In this document: in pieces, positions 1 through 12,877 of the stretch
Numbering within the stretch: the stretch's first letter is position 1
Layout of the letters: every line of letters begins with the position of its first letter
From: Gemmatimonadota bacterium
GTDB lineage: Bacteria; Gemmatimonadota; Gemmatimonadetes; Gemmatimonadales; GWC2-71-9
Assembly (NCBI GenBank): GCA_003221005.1
Contig: QHTZ01000099.1
Location: forward strand, 2,829-66,828
Length of the DNA stretch: 64,000 nt
Direction of reading: 5' to 3'
Made by a program: the position numbers and the translations under genes
The notes under the pieces: generated by a model
What the model was told of the DNA's origin: nothing
Database searches by the model: none
Seen by the model: the letters and a program-made list of their open reading frames with translations, nothing else

Positions 1-1934
1 TGGACGAGTTCGTGATGGTCCGTGTGGGCGCCCTCAAACGAGCGGTGGTCACGGGTGAAGCAGGCCCGAGCGATGACGGCCTCACGCCGCAGGACCAGCT
101 CGACGCCATCGCGATCCGCTTGCGCCCATTGCTCGAGCGCCAGGCCCGGTGTCTTGCGGCGAGCCTGGTGCCCCAGCTGGCCGAGCACGACGTCCGCATC
201 CTGCGCTGGGGCGACTTGTCCCCGCGGCAGCGCGACGCTCTGGTGCGCTATTTCGCGGAGCAGGTCTTTCCCGTCTTGACGCCGCAGGCCATAACCCGGG
301 CCCCGGGATACCCGTTCCCGCTGATCCCCAATCTCCGGCTCTCGCTCGCGGTCATGTTGCGCGATCCGAGAACGGGACCCATGCACTTCGCCTACGTCAA
401 GATTCCGGATGGCCTGCCGCGCTTCGTGAAAGTGCCCGAGGACGGAGGGCTGGTGCCCCTGGAGGATGTCGTTCGGGCCAATCTGGAGGCGATATATCCC
501 GGGCGGCGCGTCGAAGGGGCCTACGCGTTCCGCCTCACCCGCAGCGGCGAGCCCGACCCCGACGAACAGCAGGCGACGAGCCTGCTGCGGACGATCCAGG
601 AAGAGACCAAGCGTCGGCCCTACGGGCCGGCCGTGCGCCTCGAGCTGGAGCGGGCGACGCCGGCGGCGTTACGGGAGCAGCTGCTGCGGGAATTGCGGTT
701 CGAGGCCGCCGAGGACGTGAGCGCGCTCGGGCCGGGAGACGTGTACGAGGTGGACGGCATCCTGGACCTGGGAGGGTTGCGCGAGATCGCCGACCTGCCG
801 CTCGAGCAGCTGCAATACCCGGTGTTCCGTGGCCGCTCCCCGCTCCCCGCAGGACGGTCGATCTTCGATATCCTGGCCGACCGCGACGTCCTGATCCATC
901 ACCCGTACGATTCCTTCGAGGCGACGGTGGAGCGCTTGCTCGCCGAAGCGGCGGCGGACCCGGACGTGTTGGCCATCAAGCTCACGCTGTACCGGGCGGG
1001 CGGGAGGTCTGGGGTCGTCGATTCACTGCTGCAGGCGGTGCGGGCCGGCAAAGAAGTGTTCGTCTTCGTCGAGCTCAAGGCGCGGTTCGACGAGGAGCGC
1101 AACATCGAGTGGGCGAAGAAGCTCGAGGAGGCGGGGATCCACGTCGTCTACGGGCTCGTGAACCTAAAGACCCACGCCAAGACCGCGCTGGTGGTCCGCC
1201 GGGAGAAGAGCACGGTCCGGCGCTACGTGCACATCGGGACCGGCAACTACAACGCCGCGACGGCGGCCCTCTACACTGACTTGGGCTTGCTGTCGTCCGA
1301 CGAGGCGCTCGGCGCTGACTTGAATGCGCTGTTCAACGAGCTGTCGGGGTCATCCCGGGCTCCCGAGACCTCCTACCAGCAGCTGCTCGTCGCGCCGACG
1401 CACCTGCTGCCGCGCTTCATCGAGCTGATCGAGCGGGAAGCGGCACATGCCCGCGCGGGGCGCAGCGCTAGGATTTGCGTCAAGCTCAACGGCCTCACCG
1501 ATCCGGAGATGATCGCGACCCTGTATCGCGCCTCCCAGGCCGGGGTCGCGATCGACCTGATCGTGCGCGGCGTGTGCTCGCTCCGGCCCGGCGTGGCAGG
1601 CCTCTCCGAGCGGATCCGCGTCATCAGCCTGCTCGGGCGATTCCTCGAGCACGCCCGGATCTTCTATTTCGCCAACGGCGGCGAGCCGGAGTACTACATC
1701 GGCTCAGCCGACTGGCGCCCGCGGAACCTGCGCCGGCGGGTCGAGGTCGTGGCGCCCGTGCGCGATCCCGAGTGCCGCCGCCGGCTCGACGACATCCTGG
1801 CCGCGGAGCTCGCGGACCCGACGGCATGGGAGCTGTGTCCGGACGGCGGCTATCAGCGGCGCAGGCCGGAGGCGACGGGGGACCAGCGCAGCGCCCAGGA
1901 GCGATTCATCGATCTCGCCGCCCAGACGGCCTAG
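1..1934 (+). CDS. ppk1: Polyphosphate kinase 1 (5'-partial)
   Basis: Frame open from the window edge (DEFVMVRVG). PPK1 motifs HHPYDSF, ELKARFDEERNI, KTHAK, HIGTGNYN, RFLEHAR, GSADWRPRNL. Confidence 0.97.
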   Translation, partial: DEFVMVRVGALKRAVVTGEAGPSDDGLTPQDQLDAIAIRLRPLLERQARCLAASLVPQLAEHDVRILRWGDLSPRQRDALVRYFAEQVFPVLTPQAITRAPGYPFPLIPNLRLSLAVMLRDPRTGPMHFAYVKIPDGLPRFVKVPEDGGLVPLEDVVRANLEAIYPGRRVEGAYAFRLTRSGEPDPDEQQATSLLRTIQEETKRRPYGPAVRLELERATPAALREQLLRELRFEAAEDVSALGPGDVYEVDGILDLGGLREIADLPLEQLQYPVFRGRSPLPAGRSIFDILADRDVLIHHPYDSFEATVERLLAEAAADPDVLAIKLTLYRAGGRSGVVDSLLQAVRAGKEVFVFVELKARFDEERNIEWAKKLEEAGIHVVYGLVNLKTHAKTALVVRREKSTVRRYVHIGTGNYNAATAALYTDLGLLSSDEALGADLNALFNELSGSSRAPETSYQQLLVAPTHLLPRFIELIEREAAHARAGRSARICVKLNGLTDPEMIATLYRASQAGVAIDLIVRGVCSLRPGVAGLSERIRVISLLGRFLEHARIFYFANGGEPEYYIGSADWRPRNLRRRVEVVAPVRDPECRRRLDDILAAELADPTAWELCPDGGYQRRRPEATGDQRSAQERFIDLAAQTA

Positions 1935-5804: not shown

Positions 5805-7427
5805 ATGGTTCGTCTCCTGGCGATTCTCTGCGGGGTTGTGTCGCTGAGTGGCCTGCTGGGCGGATGCCGCGATGACCCGAGTGCTCCGTTCGCGCGGCCG
5901 TCGTTCGCAAGTACAACGATTGGAGGTGGGGGATTCGACGGCGCCAATAATGCCGGAGTCATTCCCGGAACTGAGTGGGCGCCCCACGGGTGGGAACCCG
6001 CACGCGACGTGAATGCCTTCGACGTCTGCTTTGCTCAGGGGTTTTGCTTTGCAGGCACCACCATCGAGCCACAGTTTTCCGCGGTCGGTAGTGTCGGCGC
6101 GGTGCTGGGTGCAGCCCCGAACCCACTTCCTAACCCCGGTTCGGAGTGCCGCGATCCGCGTGATAATCCAGACGACCCTAACGATAATCTCCCTCCAGTG
6201 CCTGACTGCTTTGCGCTCCTTACGACGGCGAATTTTTTCCGGGGCAGTCCCGACCCCGTCATCAACTTGCGCAGCGGGCTCCAAACGTGCTTTACCCTGC
6301 CCGCTAACACGGGTTGGGTGATGAATTTCGATTGGGCGCTCCTGTCGCGCGCTCCCGCGACTTCTCCGAGCACGGATGCATTCGCGGTCGTGCTGGTCGA
6401 GGAGGCCAGCACGTGTTTCACCGCCCCGGTGGCACCGCTTGAGGCGTTCCGGATCTCGCGGAGCGAACTGCAGCAAGGCGCGGTGCCGTTGAAGGAGGGC
6501 GGCTGCGGTAGCCTCACCCTCGGTGGCGTGCCTTCCGAATACCCACTCTGCACGGGATGGCAGAATTCCTCGATCGACATGTCTGCGTTCGCTGGGAAGC
6601 TGGTCCAGGTCTGGCTCTACGTGGACGAAGGCGGGATCGACCCAGGCGTCGCCACCTCGTTCGCGATCGACAACCTGAAGTTTGAAGAGACCGTACTGGT
6701 CGGTCCCGTGACAGGACCCGCGGAGCCGCTACCGGTGAATACGGTCGTCAACGCATCGGCGAATTTTACGGACACAGAAGTCCTGCCCCACACCGCGAGC
6801 ATCGACTGGGGAGATGGCACGAGTTCCGCCGCTGACGTTACCGAGCCGGCAGGCTCGTCGCCGGGCTCTGCGAGCGGTAGCCATTCGTACACAACGGCCG
6901 GCATTTATTCCGTAACCATATCCGTTTCTGATGGCTCCGGGTCTCCCGGGAAGTCGAGTTTCGACTTCGTCGTCGTGTTTGACCTGACGGGAGGGGTCGC
7001 TGGGTGCGGTTGGATCGACTCTCCAGCGGGCGCGTATCCGCGGGATCCGACTCTGACGGGGAGGGCGAGGTTCGCGTTCCTCTCCCGGTACCCAAGGGGC
7101 TCCACCGTACCGAACGGCGTCACGTTCTTCCGGTTCCGCGCTGGCAATCTACGGTTTAGGAGCACGAGCTACGCCTGGCTCGCGATCGTAGGCGCCAAGG
7201 CCCAATACAAGGGCGTTGGGCTCATCAACGGTGGGGGAGACTTCGGGCTCCTTGTTTCGGCCATCGACGGACAGTTGCCAGGCGGCGGTGGCGTTGACAA
7301 ACTCCGGATCAAGATCTGGCAGCGACGCACCTTACGTGTCGCATACGACAATCAGGCCGGGGCGCCGGACGGCGCAGAACCCGTTGCGCCACTGGCGCTG
7401 GGGCGCATTGTGATTCGCAACAGATAG
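5805..7427 (+). CDS. PKD-domain secreted protein / probable lipoprotein
   Basis: Signal peptide ending LGGC. PKD motif IDWGDG...SHSYTTAGIYSVTISVSD. C-terminal beta domain GWIDSPAGAY...KLRIKIW...YDNQ. Start uncertain (5706 possible). Confidence 0.8.
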   Translation: MVRLLAILCGVVSLSGLLGGCRDDPSAPFARPSFASTTIGGGGFDGANNAGVIPGTEWAPHGWEPARDVNAFDVCFAQGFCFAGTTIEPQFSAVGSVGAVLGAAPNPLPNPGSECRDPRDNPDDPNDNLPPVPDCFALLTTANFFRGSPDPVINLRSGLQTCFTLPANTGWVMNFDWALLSRAPATSPSTDAFAVVLVEEASTCFTAPVAPLEAFRISRSELQQGAVPLKEGGCGSLTLGGVPSEYPLCTGWQNSSIDMSAFAGKLVQVWLYVDEGGIDPGVATSFAIDNLKFEETVLVGPVTGPAEPLPVNTVVNASANFTDTEVLPHTASIDWGDGTSSAADVTEPAGSSPGSASGSHSYTTAGIYSVTISVSDGSGSPGKSSFDFVVVFDLTGGVAGCGWIDSPAGAYPRDPTLTGRARFAFLSRYPRGSTVPNGVTFFRFRAGNLRFRSTSYAWLAIVGAKAQYKGVGLINGGGDFGLLVSAIDGQLPGGGGVDKLRIKIWQRRTLRVAYDNQAGAPDGAEPVAPLALGRIVIRNR

Positions 7428-7501
7428 CTGCGAAGTCGCGCGGATTGGTTATCGAGTGCCAGTGTCTACCGGCTGGCACTCGATTCATATGGGAGTTCTG
7501 C

Positions 7502-10138
7502 ATGGCGCGTGGCGCAGATCAGCGCTGGCACCGCGCACCGGCATGGCTGTGCATCGCGGCCAGCCTGTGCGTGGCTCTCCCGGCCCTGCCCGCACTTCCG
7601 TCACTCTCCTGCCAGGTTACGGGGTTAGTGACCGCTCGAGACTCGGCCGACGCGACCGCCCGGGATGGGGATGCCGCCTACGAGCTGGGCACAAAGCAAG
7701 GAGCCGAGTCATCGATCCTCCACTATCTGCGTGCCGCAGAATCTTATCGCCGGATCGGCGCGCTGCCTCAGATGGCGGAGATGCTCAGCAACATCGCGTA
7801 TGTGCATAACAGCCTCGGTAGGCCGGACTCTGCGCTTGTCTATTACAGCCGGCTCATCGTGCTCCTCCGCGAATCCCACCAACGCGCCGGCTTGGGCGAG
7901 GCGCTCAGCCGAGTGGGAGAGGTCTACCATGGGCTAGGGCAAATGGACTCGGCCCTTTTCCACTACCGAAACGCCCTCGTCCTCGCACGGGAAGCGCAAG
8001 ATCGTCGAACCGAGGGTCGAACGCTCAGTAACATCGGGGTCGCGTTCCAAGCGCTCGGCCGTCCCGACTCCGCGCTCGGTTACCTCAACCGTGCGTTGGT
8101 AATTAGGCAGCAGCTCGGTGACAGCGTGGGGGAAGGCGTCACGCTCAACAATCTCGCGATGGTGCTTCAGTTGCTGGGCCGTCCGGATTCCGCGCTCGTT
8201 TACCTGCGTCACTCCCTGTTGCTCCGCCGCGCGGTGAAGGACCGCGCCGGAGAAGGGACGACGCTGAACAACATCGGCTATTCCTTCGAGCAGCTTGCTC
8301 AGCGCGACTCCGCTCTCGCCTACTACCGCGAGGCCCTGCTGGTACTCCGCGAAGTCGGGCGGCGTTGGACCGTGGGCATTACCCTGGCCAACATGGGTCG
8401 CGTGTGGCTCGAGCTTGGGCGGCTCGACTCGGCGTTGGTTTACTTGAACGAGGGACTGGGCTTGAAGCGGGAGGTCGGAGACAAAGCCGGCGAGACGTGG
8501 GCTTTGAATGACCTCGGTCGGGTTTATCAGTCCCTCGGCCAGCCCGATACGGCAGTGAGACTTCTGAACCAGGCGCTTGCTCTGCTGCGCGAGGTCGGCG
8601 ATCGCGCGCGCGAGGGAGAAACGCTCTACAACCTTGCTCAGGTGTTTCACCGCTCCAAACGTGACTTCCGAGCCGCCGTCGCGTACTACGATTCCGCCTC
8701 AGCTACGCGGGCTCAAGTCGGCCGTTTCGCCGGCGGCGACGCTAACCGCCTGAGCTTCGCCGAGCAGGACGTCCAGCTCTACCAGAACTGGGCGCTGGCG
8801 TGGCTCGCATGGCCGAACGGCGTGGGCGGCGTGAGTGCGGAGGCGGGCGCCAGGGCTTCGCTGGCGGCGGCAGAGCGCGGCCGGGCGCAGGCACTCCTGG
8901 ACCTGATGCGCGGGACGTCTCGGGAAACCGGCCCAGGCCGGGACCTCGCCACCGAAGGTGGGCAACTCCTGGCGCGCGCCACCCACGGCGGCGCCGCCGT
9001 GCTCTCCTACCTCGTCACTCAAGACACGCTGTTGTTGTGGGTGGGGGTGCCTGGGGGCGAGGTCGTCGTCGTGCGCCGCGCCCTGCCGCGCGACACGCTG
9101 GCGCAGCTCGTCGGGGCGTTTCGCGCTGCGCTCGGAGCGGGTGAGCGTGCGGGTCGCGGGCGGCTTGCGTTGCGGGGCGGCGGGCCGGTCGAAGGCGTGG
9201 CGTTCGGGGGGCTTGGCGTCCGGCAAGTGAACACATCGTCCCTCGACTCCGTCGCCCACACGCTGAGCGCGCTGCTGTTGCCGCCTGGCCTCGGGCAACG
9301 CCTGGGGGCGGCCCGGGAGATCGTGGTGGTGCCGCACGGGTCGCTGGGGTTAGTGCCGTTCGCGGCGCTGTTCCTCGACTCAAGCGCCGCGCCGCTCGGC
9401 AATCGCTACGCGGTGCGGTATGCCCCGTCGCTCGCCGCCCTGGGCGAAGCGGAAGCCCGAGCTGGCTTGCCCACGGGCTCGGCCCAGACTACAGCGCTTC
9501 GCACGGCGCTCGTGGTAGGGAATCCCGTGATGCCGACGAAGTCGAGCTCCGGCGAGACGTTTGCGCTCGGGCCGCTGCCGCAGGCCGAAGCCGAGGGGCG
9601 GTGGGTGGCCCAGCGGCTTGGGACGCCAGTTCTGGTCGGCGCCCAGGCCTCCGAAGCCCAGGTGCGGGGGCGCCTGCCCCGGGCAGCCGTCGTTCACCTC
9701 GCCACGCACGGCTACGCGTATGCCGCCGAAGCCCGCGCGCGCCAGTCGTTCATCGCCTTGGCACCCGGGGCCGGCCAGGACGGCTTCCTAACGGTTGGGG
9801 AGGTGTTGGACGATCCGGCGTTCAAGCTCCGTGCCGACCTCGTGGTGTTGAGCGCCTGCCAAACCGGCCTCGGTGACTTGAAGCAGGCCGAGGGGACTGT
9901 GGGGCTGCAGCGCGCGTTCCTCGCCAAGGGCGCCCGCAGCGTGCTGGTGAGTCTGTGGAGTGTGTCGGACGAGGCGACAGCGCTGTTAATGAAACACTTC
10001 TACACCCACTGGCTCGGCGACACGGATCATCCGTCGAAGGCGGAGGCGCTCAGGCGGGCGCAGGAGGACGTGCGCGCCCGGCCAGAGTTCCACGAGCCCA
10101 AGTATTGGGCGGCGTTCGAGCTGGTGGGGGCGGGGTGA
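7502..10138 (+). CDS. TPR-CHAT (caspase HetF-associated) protease, exported
   Basis: Hydrophobic N-terminus, about 8 TPR repeats (recurring GRPDSALxY), CHAT motifs VVPHGSLGLVPF, HLATHG, LVVLSACQTG, SLWSV, PKYWAAF. Confidence 0.93.
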   Translation: MARGADQRWHRAPAWLCIAASLCVALPALPALPSLSCQVTGLVTARDSADATARDGDAAYELGTKQGAESSILHYLRAAESYRRIGALPQMAEMLSNIAYVHNSLGRPDSALVYYSRLIVLLRESHQRAGLGEALSRVGEVYHGLGQMDSALFHYRNALVLAREAQDRRTEGRTLSNIGVAFQALGRPDSALGYLNRALVIRQQLGDSVGEGVTLNNLAMVLQLLGRPDSALVYLRHSLLLRRAVKDRAGEGTTLNNIGYSFEQLAQRDSALAYYREALLVLREVGRRWTVGITLANMGRVWLELGRLDSALVYLNEGLGLKREVGDKAGETWALNDLGRVYQSLGQPDTAVRLLNQALALLREVGDRAREGETLYNLAQVFHRSKRDFRAAVAYYDSASATRAQVGRFAGGDANRLSFAEQDVQLYQNWALAWLAWPNGVGGVSAEAGARASLAAAERGRAQALLDLMRGTSRETGPGRDLATEGGQLLARATHGGAAVLSYLVTQDTLLLWVGVPGGEVVVVRRALPRDTLAQLVGAFRAALGAGERAGRGRLALRGGGPVEGVAFGGLGVRQVNTSSLDSVAHTLSALLLPPGLGQRLGAAREIVVVPHGSLGLVPFAALFLDSSAAPLGNRYAVRYAPSLAALGEAEARAGLPTGSAQTTALRTALVVGNPVMPTKSSSGETFALGPLPQAEAEGRWVAQRLGTPVLVGAQASEAQVRGRLPRAAVVHLATHGYAYAAEARARQSFIALAPGAGQDGFLTVGEVLDDPAFKLRADLVVLSACQTGLGDLKQAEGTVGLQRAFLAKGARSVLVSLWSVSDEATALLMKHFYTHWLGDTDHPSKAEALRRAQEDVRARPEFHEPKYWAAFELVGAG

Positions 10139-10960: not shown

Positions 10961-11836
10961 CTACGGCCCCGCGGCGACCGCTTCGAGCGCCCCCTGATTC
11001 GGGGGCGCTTGGTATTTGAAGAACCGGTACAACAGCCAGAGATCGAGCGTGCCCACGCCTGCCAGGACCGAGAACGCGGCACCGCCCTCGATCACGTGAA
11101 GCTGCTGTAGCAGCGTCGAAATGCCGAACCCCACGACCCACGCGTCGAAGCTCATGCAGATCCGCCGGAACGTCTCGGGCCGCACCTGACGAATGACCCA
11201 CGTACCGAGCGGGATGCCGATGACGAGACTGGGAAGGATGTAGGGCAGCAGGCCCGCGCTCTCCGTGGAGAACATGCCCGCCAGGTAGTATGCCACGGCG
11301 GTGAAGGTGGATTCCGACAGCCTGACCAGCCCGAGCGCGGCTCGGAAGTCCCGCTTCGCGAGACCCTGGTTGTTCAACATGATCGCGAGGGGCGGTCCGG
11401 AGATTGTCGTCACCGAGTACAGCACCCCCAGGCCGCCGCCGAACGCCAACCCCACACGGCGCTCGGCGCGGATCGGCTTGCGGAACCCCGCGGCCTGGAG
11501 CAGAATCAGCGGCAGCAGCACCACGAACGTCGCCAGCTTCAGCCACCCGGGGTGGACCCGGTGCACCACTGACGTCCCCACGACGACGCCGGGGATCAGC
11601 CCGAGGATCATGGGGGCGACGCGGCGCCACACGTGCGGCACGCTCGACCGATTGACCCAGAGGACGTAGCCGTTGAGCACGACCTCGACCCACACCAGCG
11701 CCGGGTTGAGGATCCGATTGGTGTAAAAGAGCAGCGCCACCGGCACGGTGATCGACGAGAACCCGTAGCCGAGCGCGCCGTTGACGGTGGCCGCGAGCAG
11801 CGTGATGAGGATCAGAGCGAGCGAGGCTGATGTCAT
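10961..11836 (-). CDS. TauE/SafE (TSUP) family permease
   Basis: NGALGYGFS and TTISGPPL motifs; about 8 TM segments. Confidence 0.88.
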   Translation of the reverse strand: MTSASLALILITLLAATVNGALGYGFSSITVPVALLFYTNRILNPALVWVEVVLNGYVLWVNRSSVPHVWRRVAPMILGLIPGVVVGTSVVHRVHPGWLKLATFVVLLPLILLQAAGFRKPIRAERRVGLAFGGGLGVLYSVTTISGPPLAIMLNNQGLAKRDFRAALGLVRLSESTFTAVAYYLAGMFSTESAGLLPYILPSLVIGIPLGTWVIRQVRPETFRRICMSFDAWVVGFGISTLLQQLHVIEGGAAFSVLAGVGTLDLWLLYRFFKYQAPPNQGALEAVAAGP

Positions 11837-11941
11837 GGCTCAGATGCCCCGCCCTGCTGAGCCGCAGTATGCCGTGTACCGCCTGTCATTAGCATCCCTA
11901 TCCCCCGGCTTCGCTGTCCGCTCCGTGTGAGCACGTTCGAC

Positions 11942-11977
11942 AAAAAAGGCCCGGCGCACGCTGGGGTGGCCGGGCCT
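11942..11977 (-). terminator. Intrinsic terminator (attenuator) in the tauE leader
   Basis: Minus strand AGGCCCGGC-CACCCCAGCGTGC-GCCGGGCCT followed by a T run, 105 nt upstream of the tauE ATG. Confidence 0.88.
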
Positions 11978-12013
11978 GGAAGTGCTCAGTGAGTGAAGAG
12001 GCTTAGGGATTCC

Positions 12014-12100
12014 TCATGTCGTCCACTGGCGCGCCGTGGCGTCCGTCCAACCCTGCGGCTGGCGGCGACAACAACACGCGCGACGACACATCACAGTCAT
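12014..12100 (-). CDS. Cys-rich leader peptide MTVMCRRACCCRRQPQGWTDATARQWTT (28 aa)
   Basis: ATG 12100 to TGA 12014. Four Cys codons, all TGT, three consecutive. Lies between the promoter and the terminator. Confidence 0.75.
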   Translation of the reverse strand: MTVMCRRACCCRRQPQGWTDATARQWTT

Positions 12101-12119
12101 GTTCACGTAACGGGCATGG

Positions 12120-12149
12120 AACCTAGACCGACCCGGGGCGCGTTGTCAA
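12120..12149 (-). promoter_or_regulatory. Sigma70-type promoter for the leader-tauE transcript
   Basis: Minus strand TTGACA (12149-12144), 18-nt spacer, TAGGTT (12125-12120). Confidence 0.7.
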
Positions 12150-12211
12150 CCCTGCACGGCGCGGCGCGAGCAGCGGTTGACACACCCGCCGCGCAGAATC
12201 GAGATTCCGCC

Positions 12212-12877
12212 ATGGCCCGCGTCATCTTCTGGGATGTCGATACGCAATACGACTTCATGAGAGCCGAGGGCAAGCTGTACGTGCCGGAGGCCGAAACGCT
12301 CATCCCCAGGCTGAAGCGCCTCACGGATTACGCCCACGGCCACAACATCCGCGTCGTGGCGAGCGCGGACGATCACGTCGCGGGCCACCCCGAAATCTCC
12401 GACACCCCCGACTGGAAGAACACGTTCCCGCCGCATTGCATGCGCGGCACCCCGGGACAGCAGAAGATCCCGGAGACCGCCCTGCGGGACCCTCTCGTTA
12501 TCGAGCCTGCGCGGGCGAATCCGGCCGCCCTGACCGACCGGGTGCGTGCTCACACGGGAGACATCCTGTTCCACAAGCACCGCTTCGACGTCTTCACGAA
12601 TGAGAACGTGATGACCGTGCTCGAGGTGCTCGATCCTCAAGACATCGTGCTCTACGGCGTCGCCCTGGACGTTTGCGACAAGGCGGCGATCGAAGGCTTG
12701 CTGGAGCGGCGTCCCGCGACGCGGCTGTTCGCGGTCACCGATGCGATGAAGCCGATCGACAAGGATGTCGCAGAGCACCTGCTCAAGGAGTGGGGCGAAG
12801 AGGGCGTGCGGCTCGTGAAGACCAAAGAGGTCGTGGAGGAAGGGCTCGTCGCGGAGCTCGCGCGCGCGACCGCATGA
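12212..12877 (+). CDS. pncA: Isochorismatase-family cysteine hydrolase (nicotinamidase-like)
   Basis: WDVDTQYDF, DDH, FPPHC, K...FDVF, GVALDVC catalytic motifs. Confidence 0.8.
   Translation: MARVIFWDVDTQYDFMRAEGKLYVPEAETLIPRLKRLTDYAHGHNIRVVASADDHVAGHPEISDTPDWKNTFPPHCMRGTPGQQKIPETALRDPLVIEPARANPAALTDRVRAHTGDILFHKHRFDVFTNENVMTVLEVLDPQDIVLYGVALDVCDKAAIEGLLERRPATRLFAVTDAMKPIDKDVAEHLLKEWGEEGVRLVKTKEVVEEGLVAELARATA

What the first reader, a model, noticed from the sequence alone, without database searches (positions are those of the whole stretch)
10961..12149. Complete cysteine-sensing ribosome-mediated attenuator controlling a TauE/TSUP permease
Seen on the minus strand, in order: promoter TTGACA-18-TAGGTT; a 28-aa ORF (12100-12014) with four Cys codons, three consecutive and all TGT, whereas other genes here mostly use TGC; hairpin CCAGCC-GCAG-GGTTGG (12062-12047) just 3' of the Cys run; a GGGTTGGA segment (12053-12046) that can instead pair with TCCAGGCCC (11980-11972), overlapping the 5' arm of a 9-bp GC terminator with a T tail (11977-11942); then tauE 105 nt later. 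The Cys region GTGTCGTC also pairs with GACGACAT at the leader stop. Inferred model: a ribosome stalled on the Cys run masks CCAGCC and frees the antiterminator, so the permease is made under Cys starvation. Established: trp/his-type attenuation and poly-Cys leader ORFs in Actinobacteria. I know of no terminator-coupled Cys attenuator on a TauE gene or in this lineage. It would also imply that this 'sulfite exporter' homolog serves sulfur uptake.
Basis: partly seen in the sequence, partly recalled or inferred. Interest (0 to 1): 0.88.

Follow-up and report, generated by a model that had tools for sequence, protein, structure and literature searches.

The report
Cysteine-sensing leader before sulfur permease
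A tiny upstream reading frame packed with cysteine codons, followed by a transcription-stop hairpin, most likely lets this soil bacterium switch on a sulfur-import gene only when cysteine is scarce; the design is classical, but this version and its sister elements had not been described in this phylum.

Summary
The element is conserved. I collected 23 distinct homologous leaders from Gemmatimonadales genomes and soil metagenome contigs. All 23 have a run of 3-5 Cys codons (72 TGT, 5 TGC in the runs). All keep the same C-rich segment, G-rich segment and GC-rich hairpin followed by a T run. They precede tauE, porin and sulfate-binding-protein (sulfate ABC) operons, or yezD-porin-tauE.

The same genome holds a second, sequence-distinct Cys leader with the same three-segment layout, upstream of cysH. 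Relatives have further ones before adenylyl-sulfate kinase, sulfite reductase and O-acetylhomoserine sulfhydrylase.

Folding the nascent transcript shows a switch. With a ribosome footprint on the Cys run, the G-rich segment moves from its 5' partner to the 5' arm and loop of the terminator. This happens only with the footprint on the run.

Covariation statistics are not significant, and no transcript ends are known.

The mechanism class is classical. Terminator-coupled Cys uORFs have been predicted before cysS, and Cys leaders acting on translation are known in mycobacteria. This is a real new member of a known kind.

The parts
12144..12149 (-). -35-like hexamer TTGACA
   Evidence: TTGAC(A/T), a 17-18 nt spacer and TAnnn(T/A) occur in 21 of 21 leaders that have enough upstream sequence. 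Not reported by the consensus scan.
12120..12125 (-). -10-like hexamer TAGGTT
   Evidence: In 20 of 21 homologues the sORF ATG lies 7-10 nt after this hexamer; in the window it lies 19 nt after.
12014..12100 (-). Leader sORF, 28 codons plus TGA stop (an in-frame GTG lies at 12106)
   Evidence: An in-frame ATG or GTG start with a Cys run is present in 22 of 23 homologues; L010 has none.
12068..12076 (-). Run of three TGT (Cys) codons, the proposed sensing site; a further TGT lies at 12086-12088
   Evidence: Runs in the 23 leaders hold 72 TGT and 5 TGC, against 17% TGT genome-wide. One tRNA-Cys(GCA) was found in the genome.
12057..12067 (-). Segment 1 (CGCCGCCAGCC), anti-antiterminator arm, begins directly after the Cys run
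   Evidence: Pairs with segment 2 in the free fold. The hairpin is -14.1 kcal/mol. 79.9% of cells paired across 23 leaders.
12043..12053 (-). Segment 2 (GGGTTGGACGG), the shared arm of the two alternative helices
   Evidence: Invariant or nearly so in 23 leaders. It stays conserved as nucleotides in L017 and L069, where the reading frame differs.
11998..12015 (-). Small hairpin GAGG...CCTC that overlaps the sORF stop codon
   Evidence: 98.4% of cells paired. One pair shows changes on both sides (G:C to A:U in 2 sequences). Role unknown.
11964..11973 (-). Segment 3 (CCGGCCACCC): the inner part of the terminator's 5' arm plus the first loop bases; partner of segment 2 in the antiterminator
   Evidence: RNAalifold picks this helix on its own. 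99.5% of 207 cells paired, 7 of 9 pairs invariant. It forms in the footprint-masked folds.
11942..11977 (-). Intrinsic terminator: 12-bp GC-rich stem with one bulge, then T6 (11947-11942)
   Evidence: -24.1 kcal/mol. 94.2% of cells paired across 23 leaders.
10961..11836 (-). tauE (TauE/TSUP-family permease, 291 aa), the regulated gene
   Evidence: Pfam PF01925, 3.2e-25. All four close orthologues in the relatives searched (78-84% identity) lie behind a homologous leader, either directly or after a porin gene.

Best explanation
This is a ribosome-mediated (leader-peptide) transcription attenuator that senses charged tRNA-Cys and controls tauE.

Proposed sequence of events:
1. Transcription starts a few bases after TAGGTT.
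2. A ribosome translates the 28-codon sORF.
3. When Cys-tRNA is plentiful, the ribosome runs through the three rare, wobble-read UGU codons. Segment 1 (12067-12057) then pairs with segment 2 (12053-12043). That leaves the 5' arm of the terminator free to close with its 3' arm, and RNA polymerase stops at the T6 run (11947-11942).
4. When Cys-tRNA is scarce, the ribosome stalls on the run (12076-12068) and its footprint covers segment 1. Segment 2 pairs instead with CCGGCCACCC (11973-11964). The terminator cannot form and tauE is transcribed.

Shown: the conserved anatomy, the gene context and the in-silico switch.
Inferred: the transcription start, translation of the sORF, stalling, termination, and the direction of the response.
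By association, the TauE permease most likely imports an oxidised sulfur source such as sulfate. That too is inferred.
For: Conservation
- 23 distinct homologous leaders were collected.
- Each has a run of at least 3 Cys codons. An in-frame ATG or GTG is present in 22 of 23.
- TGT/TGC synonymous changes occur inside the runs (72 TGT, 5 TGC). All Cys codons of the sORFs together are 86 TGT and 16 TGC, against 17% TGT in the genome.
- The N-terminal residues vary freely.
- In L017 and L069 the frame after the run differs, yet GG(C/T)TGGACGG is kept. Segment 2 is therefore conserved as RNA and the Cys run as codons.

Gene context (12+7+1+2+1 = 23 leaders)
- 12 leaders directly precede tauE.
- 7 precede a Porin_O_P gene. 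It is followed by tauE in L009 and L016, and in L080 by a sulfate-binding protein and a further ORF I did not scan.
- 1 precedes DUF2292(YezD)-porin-tauE.
- 2 precede a sulfate-binding-type solute-binding protein. L017 and the L080 protein score NF008022 at 447 and 515 bits (cut-off 288); L069 is a partial ORF with Pfam SBP_bac_11 only.
- 1 contig ends after the leader.

Second system in the same genome
- G000:C61 has a sequence-distinct leader. Its sORF has 6 Cys. Its segments are CGCTCC / GGGAGCGG / CCGCTTCCC, followed by a terminator and T5.
- It lies before cysH (NF002537, 247.6 bits, cut-off 154).
- Its homologues were matched in 21 of 301 family genomes. They precede cysH, adenylyl-sulfate kinase or sulfite reductase.
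- A third group of Cys/Met-rich leaders precedes O-acetylhomoserine sulfhydrylase.

Folding
- Window transcript cut before the terminator's 3' arm. Free: 9 segment 1:2 pairs and no 2:3 pairs. Footprint with the A site on the first or last run codon: 8-9 segment 2:3 pairs.
- The dot-bracket folds show the same antiterminator for A sites at 12076, 12073 and 12070. It is absent for footprints at 12088, at the stop codon and at 12055.
- Across the family, with the A site on the last run codon, at least 6 segment 2:3 pairs form in 16 of 23 leaders.
- RNAalifold finds the 2:3 helix unprompted.
- Bases of the terminator loop, which the terminator does not constrain, change together with segment 2 in the related groups: ACCC/GGGU (window), ACUCC/GGAGU (L114), ACCUC/GAGGU (L120) (read by eye).

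Promoter
- TTGAC(A/T), 17-18 nt, TAnnn(T/A) in 21 of 21 leaders.

Rfam
- No known family matches: the best hit scored 18.7 bits against a gathering score of 40.
Against: - No significant covariation. The 2:3 helix is almost invariant (7 of 9 pairs never vary), which argues neither way. The terminator-state structure does not exceed shuffles.
- The swap test among 16 related leaders is inconclusive. Native duplexes average -22.7 kcal/mol and swapped ones -20.7. In 5 of 16, most swapped partners do as well or better. The type 1 versus type 2 test gives only modest gaps.
- With the full terminator present, the minimum-free-energy fold keeps the terminator even under the footprint, in the window and in most homologues. 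The switch therefore rests on a co-transcriptional (kinetic) argument.
- With the A site on the last run codon, 6 of 23 leaders show no 2:3 pairs and 1 shows only 4.
- L010 has no start codon.
- The cysH leader already folds into its antiterminator without any footprint.
- The sORF has no Shine-Dalgarno sequence, and its ATG lies 19 nt after the -10 hexamer rather than 7-10 nt.
- The promoter and terminator were not called by the consensus scan.
- There are no data on transcript ends.
- G000 also has a SulP gene and a PiT-family gene, so TauE's substrate is not pinned down.
Confidence: 0.8

Rival explanations
1. The Cys sORF acts on translation or mRNA stability, as the mycobacterial polycysteine sORFs do (by unmasking a ribosome-binding site). 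The hairpin plus T run would then be a constitutive or leaky terminator that is not under control.
For: In the mycobacterial systems, stalled ribosomes block RNA structures that sequester the downstream ribosome-binding site (10.1101/834739, abstract read). The full-length minimum-free-energy folds keep the terminator even when the footprint is masked.
Against: In the window the terminator lies 105 nt upstream of the tauE start, and I saw no pairing with the tauE start region. The terminator's 5' arm and loop are invariant while its 3' arm varies, as expected for an arm with two partners. Segment 2 is complementary to that arm in all three leader groups.
Confidence: 0.07
2. The leader is mainly a small terminated RNA, or a dual-function RNA, that acts in trans. 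Its Cys-rich peptide or its RNA would be the product, as with rnTrpL/peTrpL in Sinorhizobium.
For: A short terminated transcript of about 170 nt is predicted. Leader RNAs and leader peptides with functions in trans are known (PMC7298713, abstract read).
Against: Apart from the Cys residues, the peptide is conserved only where the RNA is. Two of 23 leaders shift frame after the run. The element is always directly upstream of, and on the same strand as, sulfur genes. A role in trans would add to the role in cis rather than replace it.
Confidence: 0.05
3. A metabolite- or protein-binding RNA switch (a riboswitch or an RNA-binding attenuation protein) uses the conserved G-rich and C-rich segments, and the ORF is incidental.
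For: Segments 2 and 3 are invariant, as ligand-binding cores often are.
Against: Three sequence-distinct leader groups share only the Cys-rich in-frame sORF and the layout. Synonymous TGT/TGC changes preserve Cys. No Rfam family matches.
Confidence: 0.04
4. A chance ORF beside an ordinary terminator.
For: Runs of three Cys codons are common in off-frame GC-rich DNA: 369 in this genome.
Against: The whole arrangement recurs in 23 distinct sequences from several genera. The strict pattern found it only in Gemmatimonadales-type records: 5 true hits among 20.
Confidence: 0.01

Closest known systems
Classical leader-peptide transcription attenuators of enteric bacteria (trp, his, thr, leu, pheA, ilv operons; recalled textbook knowledge, summarised in PMC4007540, passages read)
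   Same: A short ORF with a run of codons for the sensed amino acid. Three overlapping helices (1:2, 2:3, 3:4). An intrinsic terminator before the structural gene. Segment 1 lies within the footprint of a ribosome stalled on the regulatory codons.
   Different: The amino acid is cysteine. The targets are sulfur uptake and assimilation genes. There is no Shine-Dalgarno sequence, and most homologues look leaderless (ATG 7-10 nt after the -10 hexamer). The stop codon lies 27 nt beyond segment 2, so a terminating ribosome does not cover segment 2 as it does in trp.
Polycysteine leaderless sORFs of mycobacteria (Canestrari et al. 2020, bioRxiv 10.1101/834739; abstract and outline read)
   Same: [quoted passage not shown] They sit in front of several cysteine and sulfur loci and form a ribosome-directed regulon.
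   Different: [quoted passage not shown] Earlier comparative work found no terminators there (PMC1262725, passages read). Here every leader carries a strong GC hairpin and a T run. No sequence similarity was found; the lineage is Gemmatimonadales, not Actinobacteria.
uORFC-8-2 motif upstream of cysS in Rhodobacterales (Brewer et al. 2021, PMC8632094; passages read)
   Same: A predicted ribosome-mediated attenuator with tandem Cys codons inside a stem, ending in an intrinsic terminator.
   Different: It has two Cys codons, mostly UGC, and is found only before cysS in Alphaproteobacteria. Here there are 3-5 codons, mostly UGU, before transport and assimilation genes, and the sequence is different.
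Leaderless 10-aa cysS leader peptide of Deinococcus deserti (de Groot et al. 2014, PMC4007540; passages read)
   Same: A leaderless transcript whose first codons encode a short Cys-containing peptide that is predicted to attenuate transcription.
   Different: It has two Cys codons and precedes cysS. The passages I read give no comparative or structural model.
TauE-family and TSUP sulfate importers: TK06_RS10770 / Ac3H11_578 (PMC11535334, passages read) and C. glutamicum CysZ (PMC5840216, passages read)
   Same: A member of the family named for sulfite and sulfoacetate export, tied to sulfate assimilation by context. The published cases rest on complementation of E. coli cysA and on fitness data.
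   Different: I did not measure similarity between the window's TauE and those proteins. Here the link is co-regulation only.

Membership tests
Ribosome-mediated (leader-peptide) transcription attenuator | A short translated ORF enriched in codons of the sensed amino acid | tested here: met
   4 Cys among 28 codons, against 0.8% genome-wide. A Cys run is in frame with a start codon in 22 of 23 homologues. Translation itself was not tested.
Ribosome-mediated (leader-peptide) transcription attenuator | An intrinsic terminator between the sORF and the structural gene | tested here: met
   A 12-bp stem of -24.1 kcal/mol followed by T6. 94.2% of cells paired in 23 leaders. Termination in vivo was not tested.
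Ribosome-mediated (leader-peptide) transcription attenuator | An antiterminator helix that excludes the terminator | tested here: inconclusive
   A 9-bp helix between 12053-12043 and 11973-11964 forms in masked folds and is paired in 99.5% of cells. It is nearly invariant, the covariation is not significant, and the swap tests are weak.
Ribosome-mediated (leader-peptide) transcription attenuator | An anti-antiterminator segment lying within the footprint of a ribosome stalled on the regulatory codons | tested here: met
   Segment 1 starts at the base after the last Cys codon (12067). Only footprints on the run switch the fold.
Ribosome-mediated (leader-peptide) transcription attenuator | Read-through responds to the supply of the charged tRNA | not testable with these tools
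   Needs reporter assays or Term-seq under cysteine limitation.
Mycobacterial polycysteine leaderless sORF attenuators | Leaderless mRNA that begins at the sORF start codon | tested here: inconclusive
   The ATG lies 7-10 nt after the -10 hexamer in 20 of 21 homologues but 19 nt after it in the window. No transcription start data.
Mycobacterial polycysteine leaderless sORF attenuators | Control through sequestration of the downstream ribosome-binding site, without a terminator | tested here: not met
   A terminator is present in all 23 leaders. In the window, 105 nt separate it from the tauE start.
Rfam families (release 15) | A score at or above a family's gathering threshold | tested here: not met
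   The best of 12 sub-threshold matches scored 18.7 bits against a threshold of 40.
TauE/SafE (TSUP) permeases, Pfam PF01925 | A profile match above the curated cut-off | tested here: met
   89.6 bits against a cut-off of 32.6. No NCBIfam model matched.

The most novel reading that the evidence does not exclude
In Gemmatimonadaceae the ribosome itself may be the main sensor for sulfur assimilation. At least three sequence-distinct families of poly-Cys leader ORFs, each coupled to an intrinsic terminator, together control uptake (an outer-membrane porin, the sulfate ABC transporter, TauE), reduction (adenylyl-sulfate kinase, cysH, sulfite reductase) and incorporation (O-acetylhomoserine sulfhydrylase, and perhaps aspartate kinase). 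This would be a transcriptional counterpart of the mycobacterial Cys regulon, arisen independently, and it would mark this TauE clade as a sulfur importer.
Probability: 0.6. Interest if true: 0.65.

Novelty: new member of a known kind. Interest (0 to 1): 0.55.

Why it matters
- It gives a testable regulatory logic for sulfur assimilation in Gemmatimonadota, an abundant soil phylum with few cultured members. In the library searched I found no paper on attenuators or leader peptides of this kind in the phylum; none of the 15 papers listed holds the terms 'leader peptide' or 'attenuator'; 12 papers hold 'Gemmatimonad' and 'leader peptide'; the 10 listed concern other kinds of leader peptide, judging by title and abstract start.
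- It extends Cys-sensing leader ORFs from translational control in Actinobacteria, and from cysS-only predictions, to terminator-based control of a whole pathway.
- It offers context-based annotation: this TauE clade and the associated Porin_O_P gene are probably sulfur-uptake components.
- The unannotated sORFs would be missed by gene callers.

Tried and rejected
Rfam scan of 11700-12300 at E up to 10: only sub-threshold noise.

Consensus promoter/terminator scan: neither element was reported, so it gives no support.

Full-length masked folds: the terminator persists in the window and in most homologues. I therefore modelled the decision point with transcripts cut before the terminator's 3' arm.

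Covariation counts: not significant.

Duplex swap tests: modest or inconclusive.

Covariance model R1 on the window's own genome: one strong hit, the window itself. Four weak hits (E 0.013-0.28) lacked a Cys sORF when inspected.

R1 on 151 genomes of the order: matches outside the family were weak. L099, L105 and L108 have no Cys-rich sORF. L106 and L107 are partial matches to the terminator part of the model and were not inspected.

tblastn of sulfate-binding protein, porin, the L080 terminal ORF fragment and yezD from relatives against G000: no hit at 1e-5, and I ran no positive control. Completeness is 93.9%, so this means 'not found', not 'absent'.

SulP, PiT and a second TauE fragment in G000 have no Cys leader upstream.

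RNA data. Four soil metatranscriptome runs of one study were laid. The data are contigs only, at depth about 3. Two contigs (X1: 11885-12072; X3: 11849-12040) bridge the terminator. This shows only that a close relative's leader and the downstream stretch occur contiguously in RNA libraries, which may contain DNA. It gives no information on starts, ends or expression level. The parts of the stretch without cover mean nothing.

Supplementary files of the papers were not seen. Supplementary table S9 of PMC4007540 and the motif files of PMC8632094 may list further Cys leaders.

Not done: structure prediction, large protein-database searches, and a comparison of this TauE with the published sulfate importers.
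Full report
**Observation.**
On the minus strand the window reads as follows.
- TTGACA (12149-12144), 18 nt, TAGGTT (12125-12120).
- An sORF from ATG 12100 to TGA 12016-12014, encoding MTVMCRRACCCRRQPQGWTDATARQWTT. Its four Cys codons are all TGT (12088-12086 and 12076-12068).
- The hairpin CCAGCC-GCAG-GGTTGG (12062-12047).
- A GC-rich hairpin (11977-11966 / 11959-11947, -24.1 kcal/mol) followed by T6 (11947-11942).
- 105 nt further on, the ATG of a 291-aa TauE-family gene (Pfam 3.2e-25).

The upstream neighbour is a divergent isochorismatase-like gene (12212-12877, + strand). The terminator therefore cannot belong to an upstream gene on the same strand.

The genome is 69% G+C. It uses TGT for 17% of Cys codons (642 of 3788) and Cys for 0.8% of codons. 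One tRNA-Cys(GCA) was found.

The leader (186 nt) folds at -81.3 kcal/mol, z = -2.88 against shuffles. No Rfam family reaches its threshold. The simple consensus scan did not report the promoter or this terminator.

**Lineage and homologues.**
The window is G000:C8 of a 2.79-Mb assembly that is 93.9% complete. Record titles of matching contigs read 'Gemmatimonadales bacterium'.

Close tauE orthologues (78-84% identity) occur in 4 of 60 relatives searched.

A 221-nt leader query matched 34 of 301 family genomes at E <= 0.01, including all six genomes of the same genus. About a dozen matches cover both the sORF and the terminator.

A strict pattern (Cys run, then GGNYGGACGG, then GCCCGGCC) gave these results:
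- 20 hits in 185,579 species genomes, of which 5 are true. Four are Gemmatimonadales MAGs and one is an uncultured-bacterium MAG. The other 15 show no leader-like sORF or terminator.
- 30 hits in metagenome contigs, of which 15 are true.

After removing duplicates there are 23 distinct leaders (alignment A2).

**What is conserved.**
- All 23 leaders have a run of 3-5 Cys codons.
- 22 of 23 have an in-frame ATG or GTG. L010 has none.
- TTGAC(A/T), 17-18 nt, TAnnn(T/A) is present in 21 of 21 leaders with enough upstream sequence. The ATG lies 7-10 nt after the -10 hexamer in 20 of these, which suggests leaderless or nearly leaderless mRNAs. The window is the exception at 19 nt.
- The residues before the run vary freely.
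- Cys codons are 86 TGT to 16 TGC overall, and 72 to 5 within the runs.
- After the run the nucleotides GG(G)TTGGACGG, GGCCCGGCCACC and CCGGG are invariant or nearly so.
- In L017 and L069 the reading frame across GGNTGGACGG differs. That stretch is therefore kept as RNA, while the Cys run is kept as codons.
- The terminator's 5' arm is invariant, whereas its 3' arm varies through G:U pairs and bulges. That fits an arm with two alternative partners.

**Gene context.**
Of the 23 leaders:
- 12 directly precede tauE.
- 7 precede a Porin_O_P gene. Pfam confirmed this for L009, L012 and L016. The other four (L014, L061, L074, L080) I assigned by resemblance of their N termini only.
- 1 precedes DUF2292(YezD) followed by a porin. 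That porin is also Pfam-confirmed.
- 2 precede a sulfate-binding-type solute-binding protein.
- 1 contig ends after the leader.

In G002, G005 and G006 the porin is followed by tauE. In L080 it is followed by a sulfate-binding protein and a further ORF that I did not scan.

The binding proteins of L080 and L017 score 515 and 447 bits on NF008022, sulfate ABC substrate-binding protein, cut-off 288. The L069 protein is a partial ORF with only a Pfam SBP_bac_11 match.

All four tauE orthologues found in the relatives searched are thus behind such a leader.

**Sister systems.**
A scan of G000 for Cys-rich sORFs followed by a hairpin and a T run found a second leader on contig C61 (locus L127).
- Promoter-like TTGACA, 17 nt, TAGCGT.
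- sORF MPRTCATTVCCKACCMCARSLGSGHGGGALSGGNRT.
- CGCTCC / GGGAGCGG / CCGCTTCCC in the positions of segments 1, 2 and 3, then a terminator and T5.
- It lies upstream of cysH. A siroheme-synthase-like gene follows (named from its N terminus by recall), and sulfite reductase follows that.

Its homologues were matched in 21 of 301 family genomes at E <= 0.001. In the 15 that I read, they precede cysH, adenylyl-sulfate kinase or sulfite reductase.

The covariance model R1 also pulled out a third group: 14 Cys/Met-rich leaders before O-acetylhomoserine sulfhydrylase. Two of these were checked and score 659 and 673 bits on TIGR01326. The other 12 were assigned by their N termini only.

It also found a related leader before an [19 protein letters not shown] gene in two genomes (family assignments).

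The shared features across the three groups are the Cys-rich in-frame sORF and the three-segment layout, not the sequence.

**Mechanism in silico.**
I modelled the decision point with the window transcript cut before the terminator's 3' arm.
- Free RNA pairs segment 2 with segment 1 (9 pairs).
- With a 30-nt footprint whose A site is on the first or last run codon, segment 2 pairs with CCGGCCACCC (8-9 pairs).
- The folds for A sites at 12076, 12073 and 12070 all show this antiterminator. It is absent when the footprint is on the isolated Cys codon (12088), on the stop codon, or on segment 2 itself.

Across the family, with the A site on the last run codon, at least 6 segment 2:3 pairs form in 16 of 23 leaders, 4 pairs in one, and none in six. 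Four of those six have a longer spacer between the run and segment 2.

RNAalifold proposes the same 2:3 helix on its own.

**Results against the model.**
- With the whole terminator present, the minimum-free-energy fold keeps it even under the footprint, in the window and in most homologues. The model therefore needs co-transcriptional kinetics, as in the trp operon.
- The cysH leader folds into its antiterminator even without a footprint.
- The 2:3 helix pairs in 99.5% of 207 cells, but 7 of 9 pairs never vary.
- The terminator-state structure (89.3% paired) is no better than shuffles on the covariation measures.
- Duplex energies of native against cross-type or swapped partners differ only modestly: -14.8 and -18.4 against -10.6 kcal/mol, and -22.7 against -20.7 kcal/mol.

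Suggestive, but read by eye: terminator-loop bases change together with segment 2 across groups. The pairs are ACCC/GGGU, ACUCC/GGAGU and ACCUC/GAGGU.

**Expression.**
Two low-depth contigs from soil metatranscriptome runs of one study bridge the terminator (X1: 11885-12072; X3: 11849-12040). They show only that a close relative's leader and the downstream stretch are present contiguously in RNA libraries. They give no ends, no strand and no level.

**Comparison with what is known.**
- Leader-peptide attenuation is classical.
- Cys-rich leader ORFs were predicted in Actinobacteria without terminators (PMC1262725, passages read).
- In mycobacteria they were shown to act by unmasking the next gene's ribosome-binding site (10.1101/834739, abstract read).
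- A terminator-coupled tandem-Cys uORF was predicted before cysS in Rhodobacterales (PMC8632094, passages read).
- A leaderless 2-Cys peptide was predicted before cysS in Deinococcus deserti (PMC4007540, passages read).
- A TauE-family sulfate importer has been shown by complementation (PMC11535334, passages read). C. glutamicum CysZ is described as a TSUP-family sulfate transporter in PMC5840216 (passages read).
- My searches for attenuators or leader peptides of this kind in Gemmatimonadota found none (search listings only). Searches found no Cys attenuator on sulfate-uptake genes.

**Verdict.**
The antiterminator register is corrected, and there is no experimental or covariation proof.

It is a new member of a known kind of system, in an understudied phylum. 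Its added value is that it is one of several Cys leaders spanning the sulfur assimilation pathway.

Confidence in the mechanism is 0.8. Interest is 0.55.

Noticed in passing
G000:C61, locus L127 about 1270-1525 (minus strand); not in the window: A second, sequence-distinct Cys leader in the same genome. Its sORF has 6 Cys. Its segments are CGCTCC / GGGAGCGG / CCGCTTCCC, followed by a terminator and T5. It lies upstream of cysH, a siroheme-synthase-like gene and sulfite reductase. Homologues in relatives precede cysH, adenylyl-sulfate kinase or sulfite reductase.
   Followed up: yes
Loci L096, L098, L101-L104, L097, L114, L116-L118, L120, L123, L125: Cys/Met-rich leader ORFs (for example MCCRICMC..., MVARSMCCCCMC...) with a GGGGTGGAC-type segment and a terminator, upstream of O-acetylhomoserine sulfhydrylase in other genera of the family. 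They may sense both Cys and Met.
   Followed up: partly
Loci L020 and L023/L115: A leader ORF MPMCHLLRGW... or MPMRHLLRGW... plus a terminator upstream of an [19 protein letters not shown] gene. The best NCBIfam scores are just under the cut-offs. The amino acid sensed is unclear.
   Followed up: partly
Locus L126 (G126:C94): A Leu-rich leader ORF MPFALVLVLLLLVLLLS... plus a terminator upstream of 2-isopropylmalate synthase (NF002086, 689 bits). It looks like an ordinary leucine attenuator and shows that leader-peptide attenuation is used more widely in this family.
   Followed up: partly
Window 12144-12185 and the equivalent place in loci L009, L012, L014-L016, L018, L019: The -35 hexamer is one half of an inverted repeat, TGTCAAC ... 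GTTGACA, with variable spacing. In several relatives the repeat is followed by a gene start on the other strand. It could be the -35 of a divergent promoter, which in the window would serve the isochorismatase-like gene at 12212-12877, or a regulator binding site.
   Followed up: no
Locus L010 (G104:C161): This tauE leader keeps the Cys run, the segments and the terminator, but has no ATG, GTG or TTG in frame and no TTGACA promoter. It may be a decaying copy or an assembly artefact.
   Followed up: no
Loci L063 3436-3540 (-) and L077 7864-7967 (+): On two metagenome contigs, a cysH-type Cys leader before adenylyl-sulfate kinase lies about 7.5 kb from the tauE leader. In G126, G033 and G278 the two leader types lie back to back within about 300 nt.
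   Followed up: partly
G000:C7, + strand about 6862-7609; not in the window: Four copies of the same short translated stretch, spaced about 207-270 nt apart and with a run of N in one copy, turned up in the Cys-run scan. This is a repeat of unknown kind.
   Followed up: no
G000:C62:13055-13426: A second TauE-family match that covers only profile positions 114-237 and has one in-frame TGA. No Cys leader lies upstream. It may be a broken or split gene.
   Followed up: no
Window 7445-10138 (+): An 897-aa ORF with TPR-like repeats and a C-terminal part that, from memory, resembles a CHAT-type protease domain. It was not scanned against any library.
   Followed up: no
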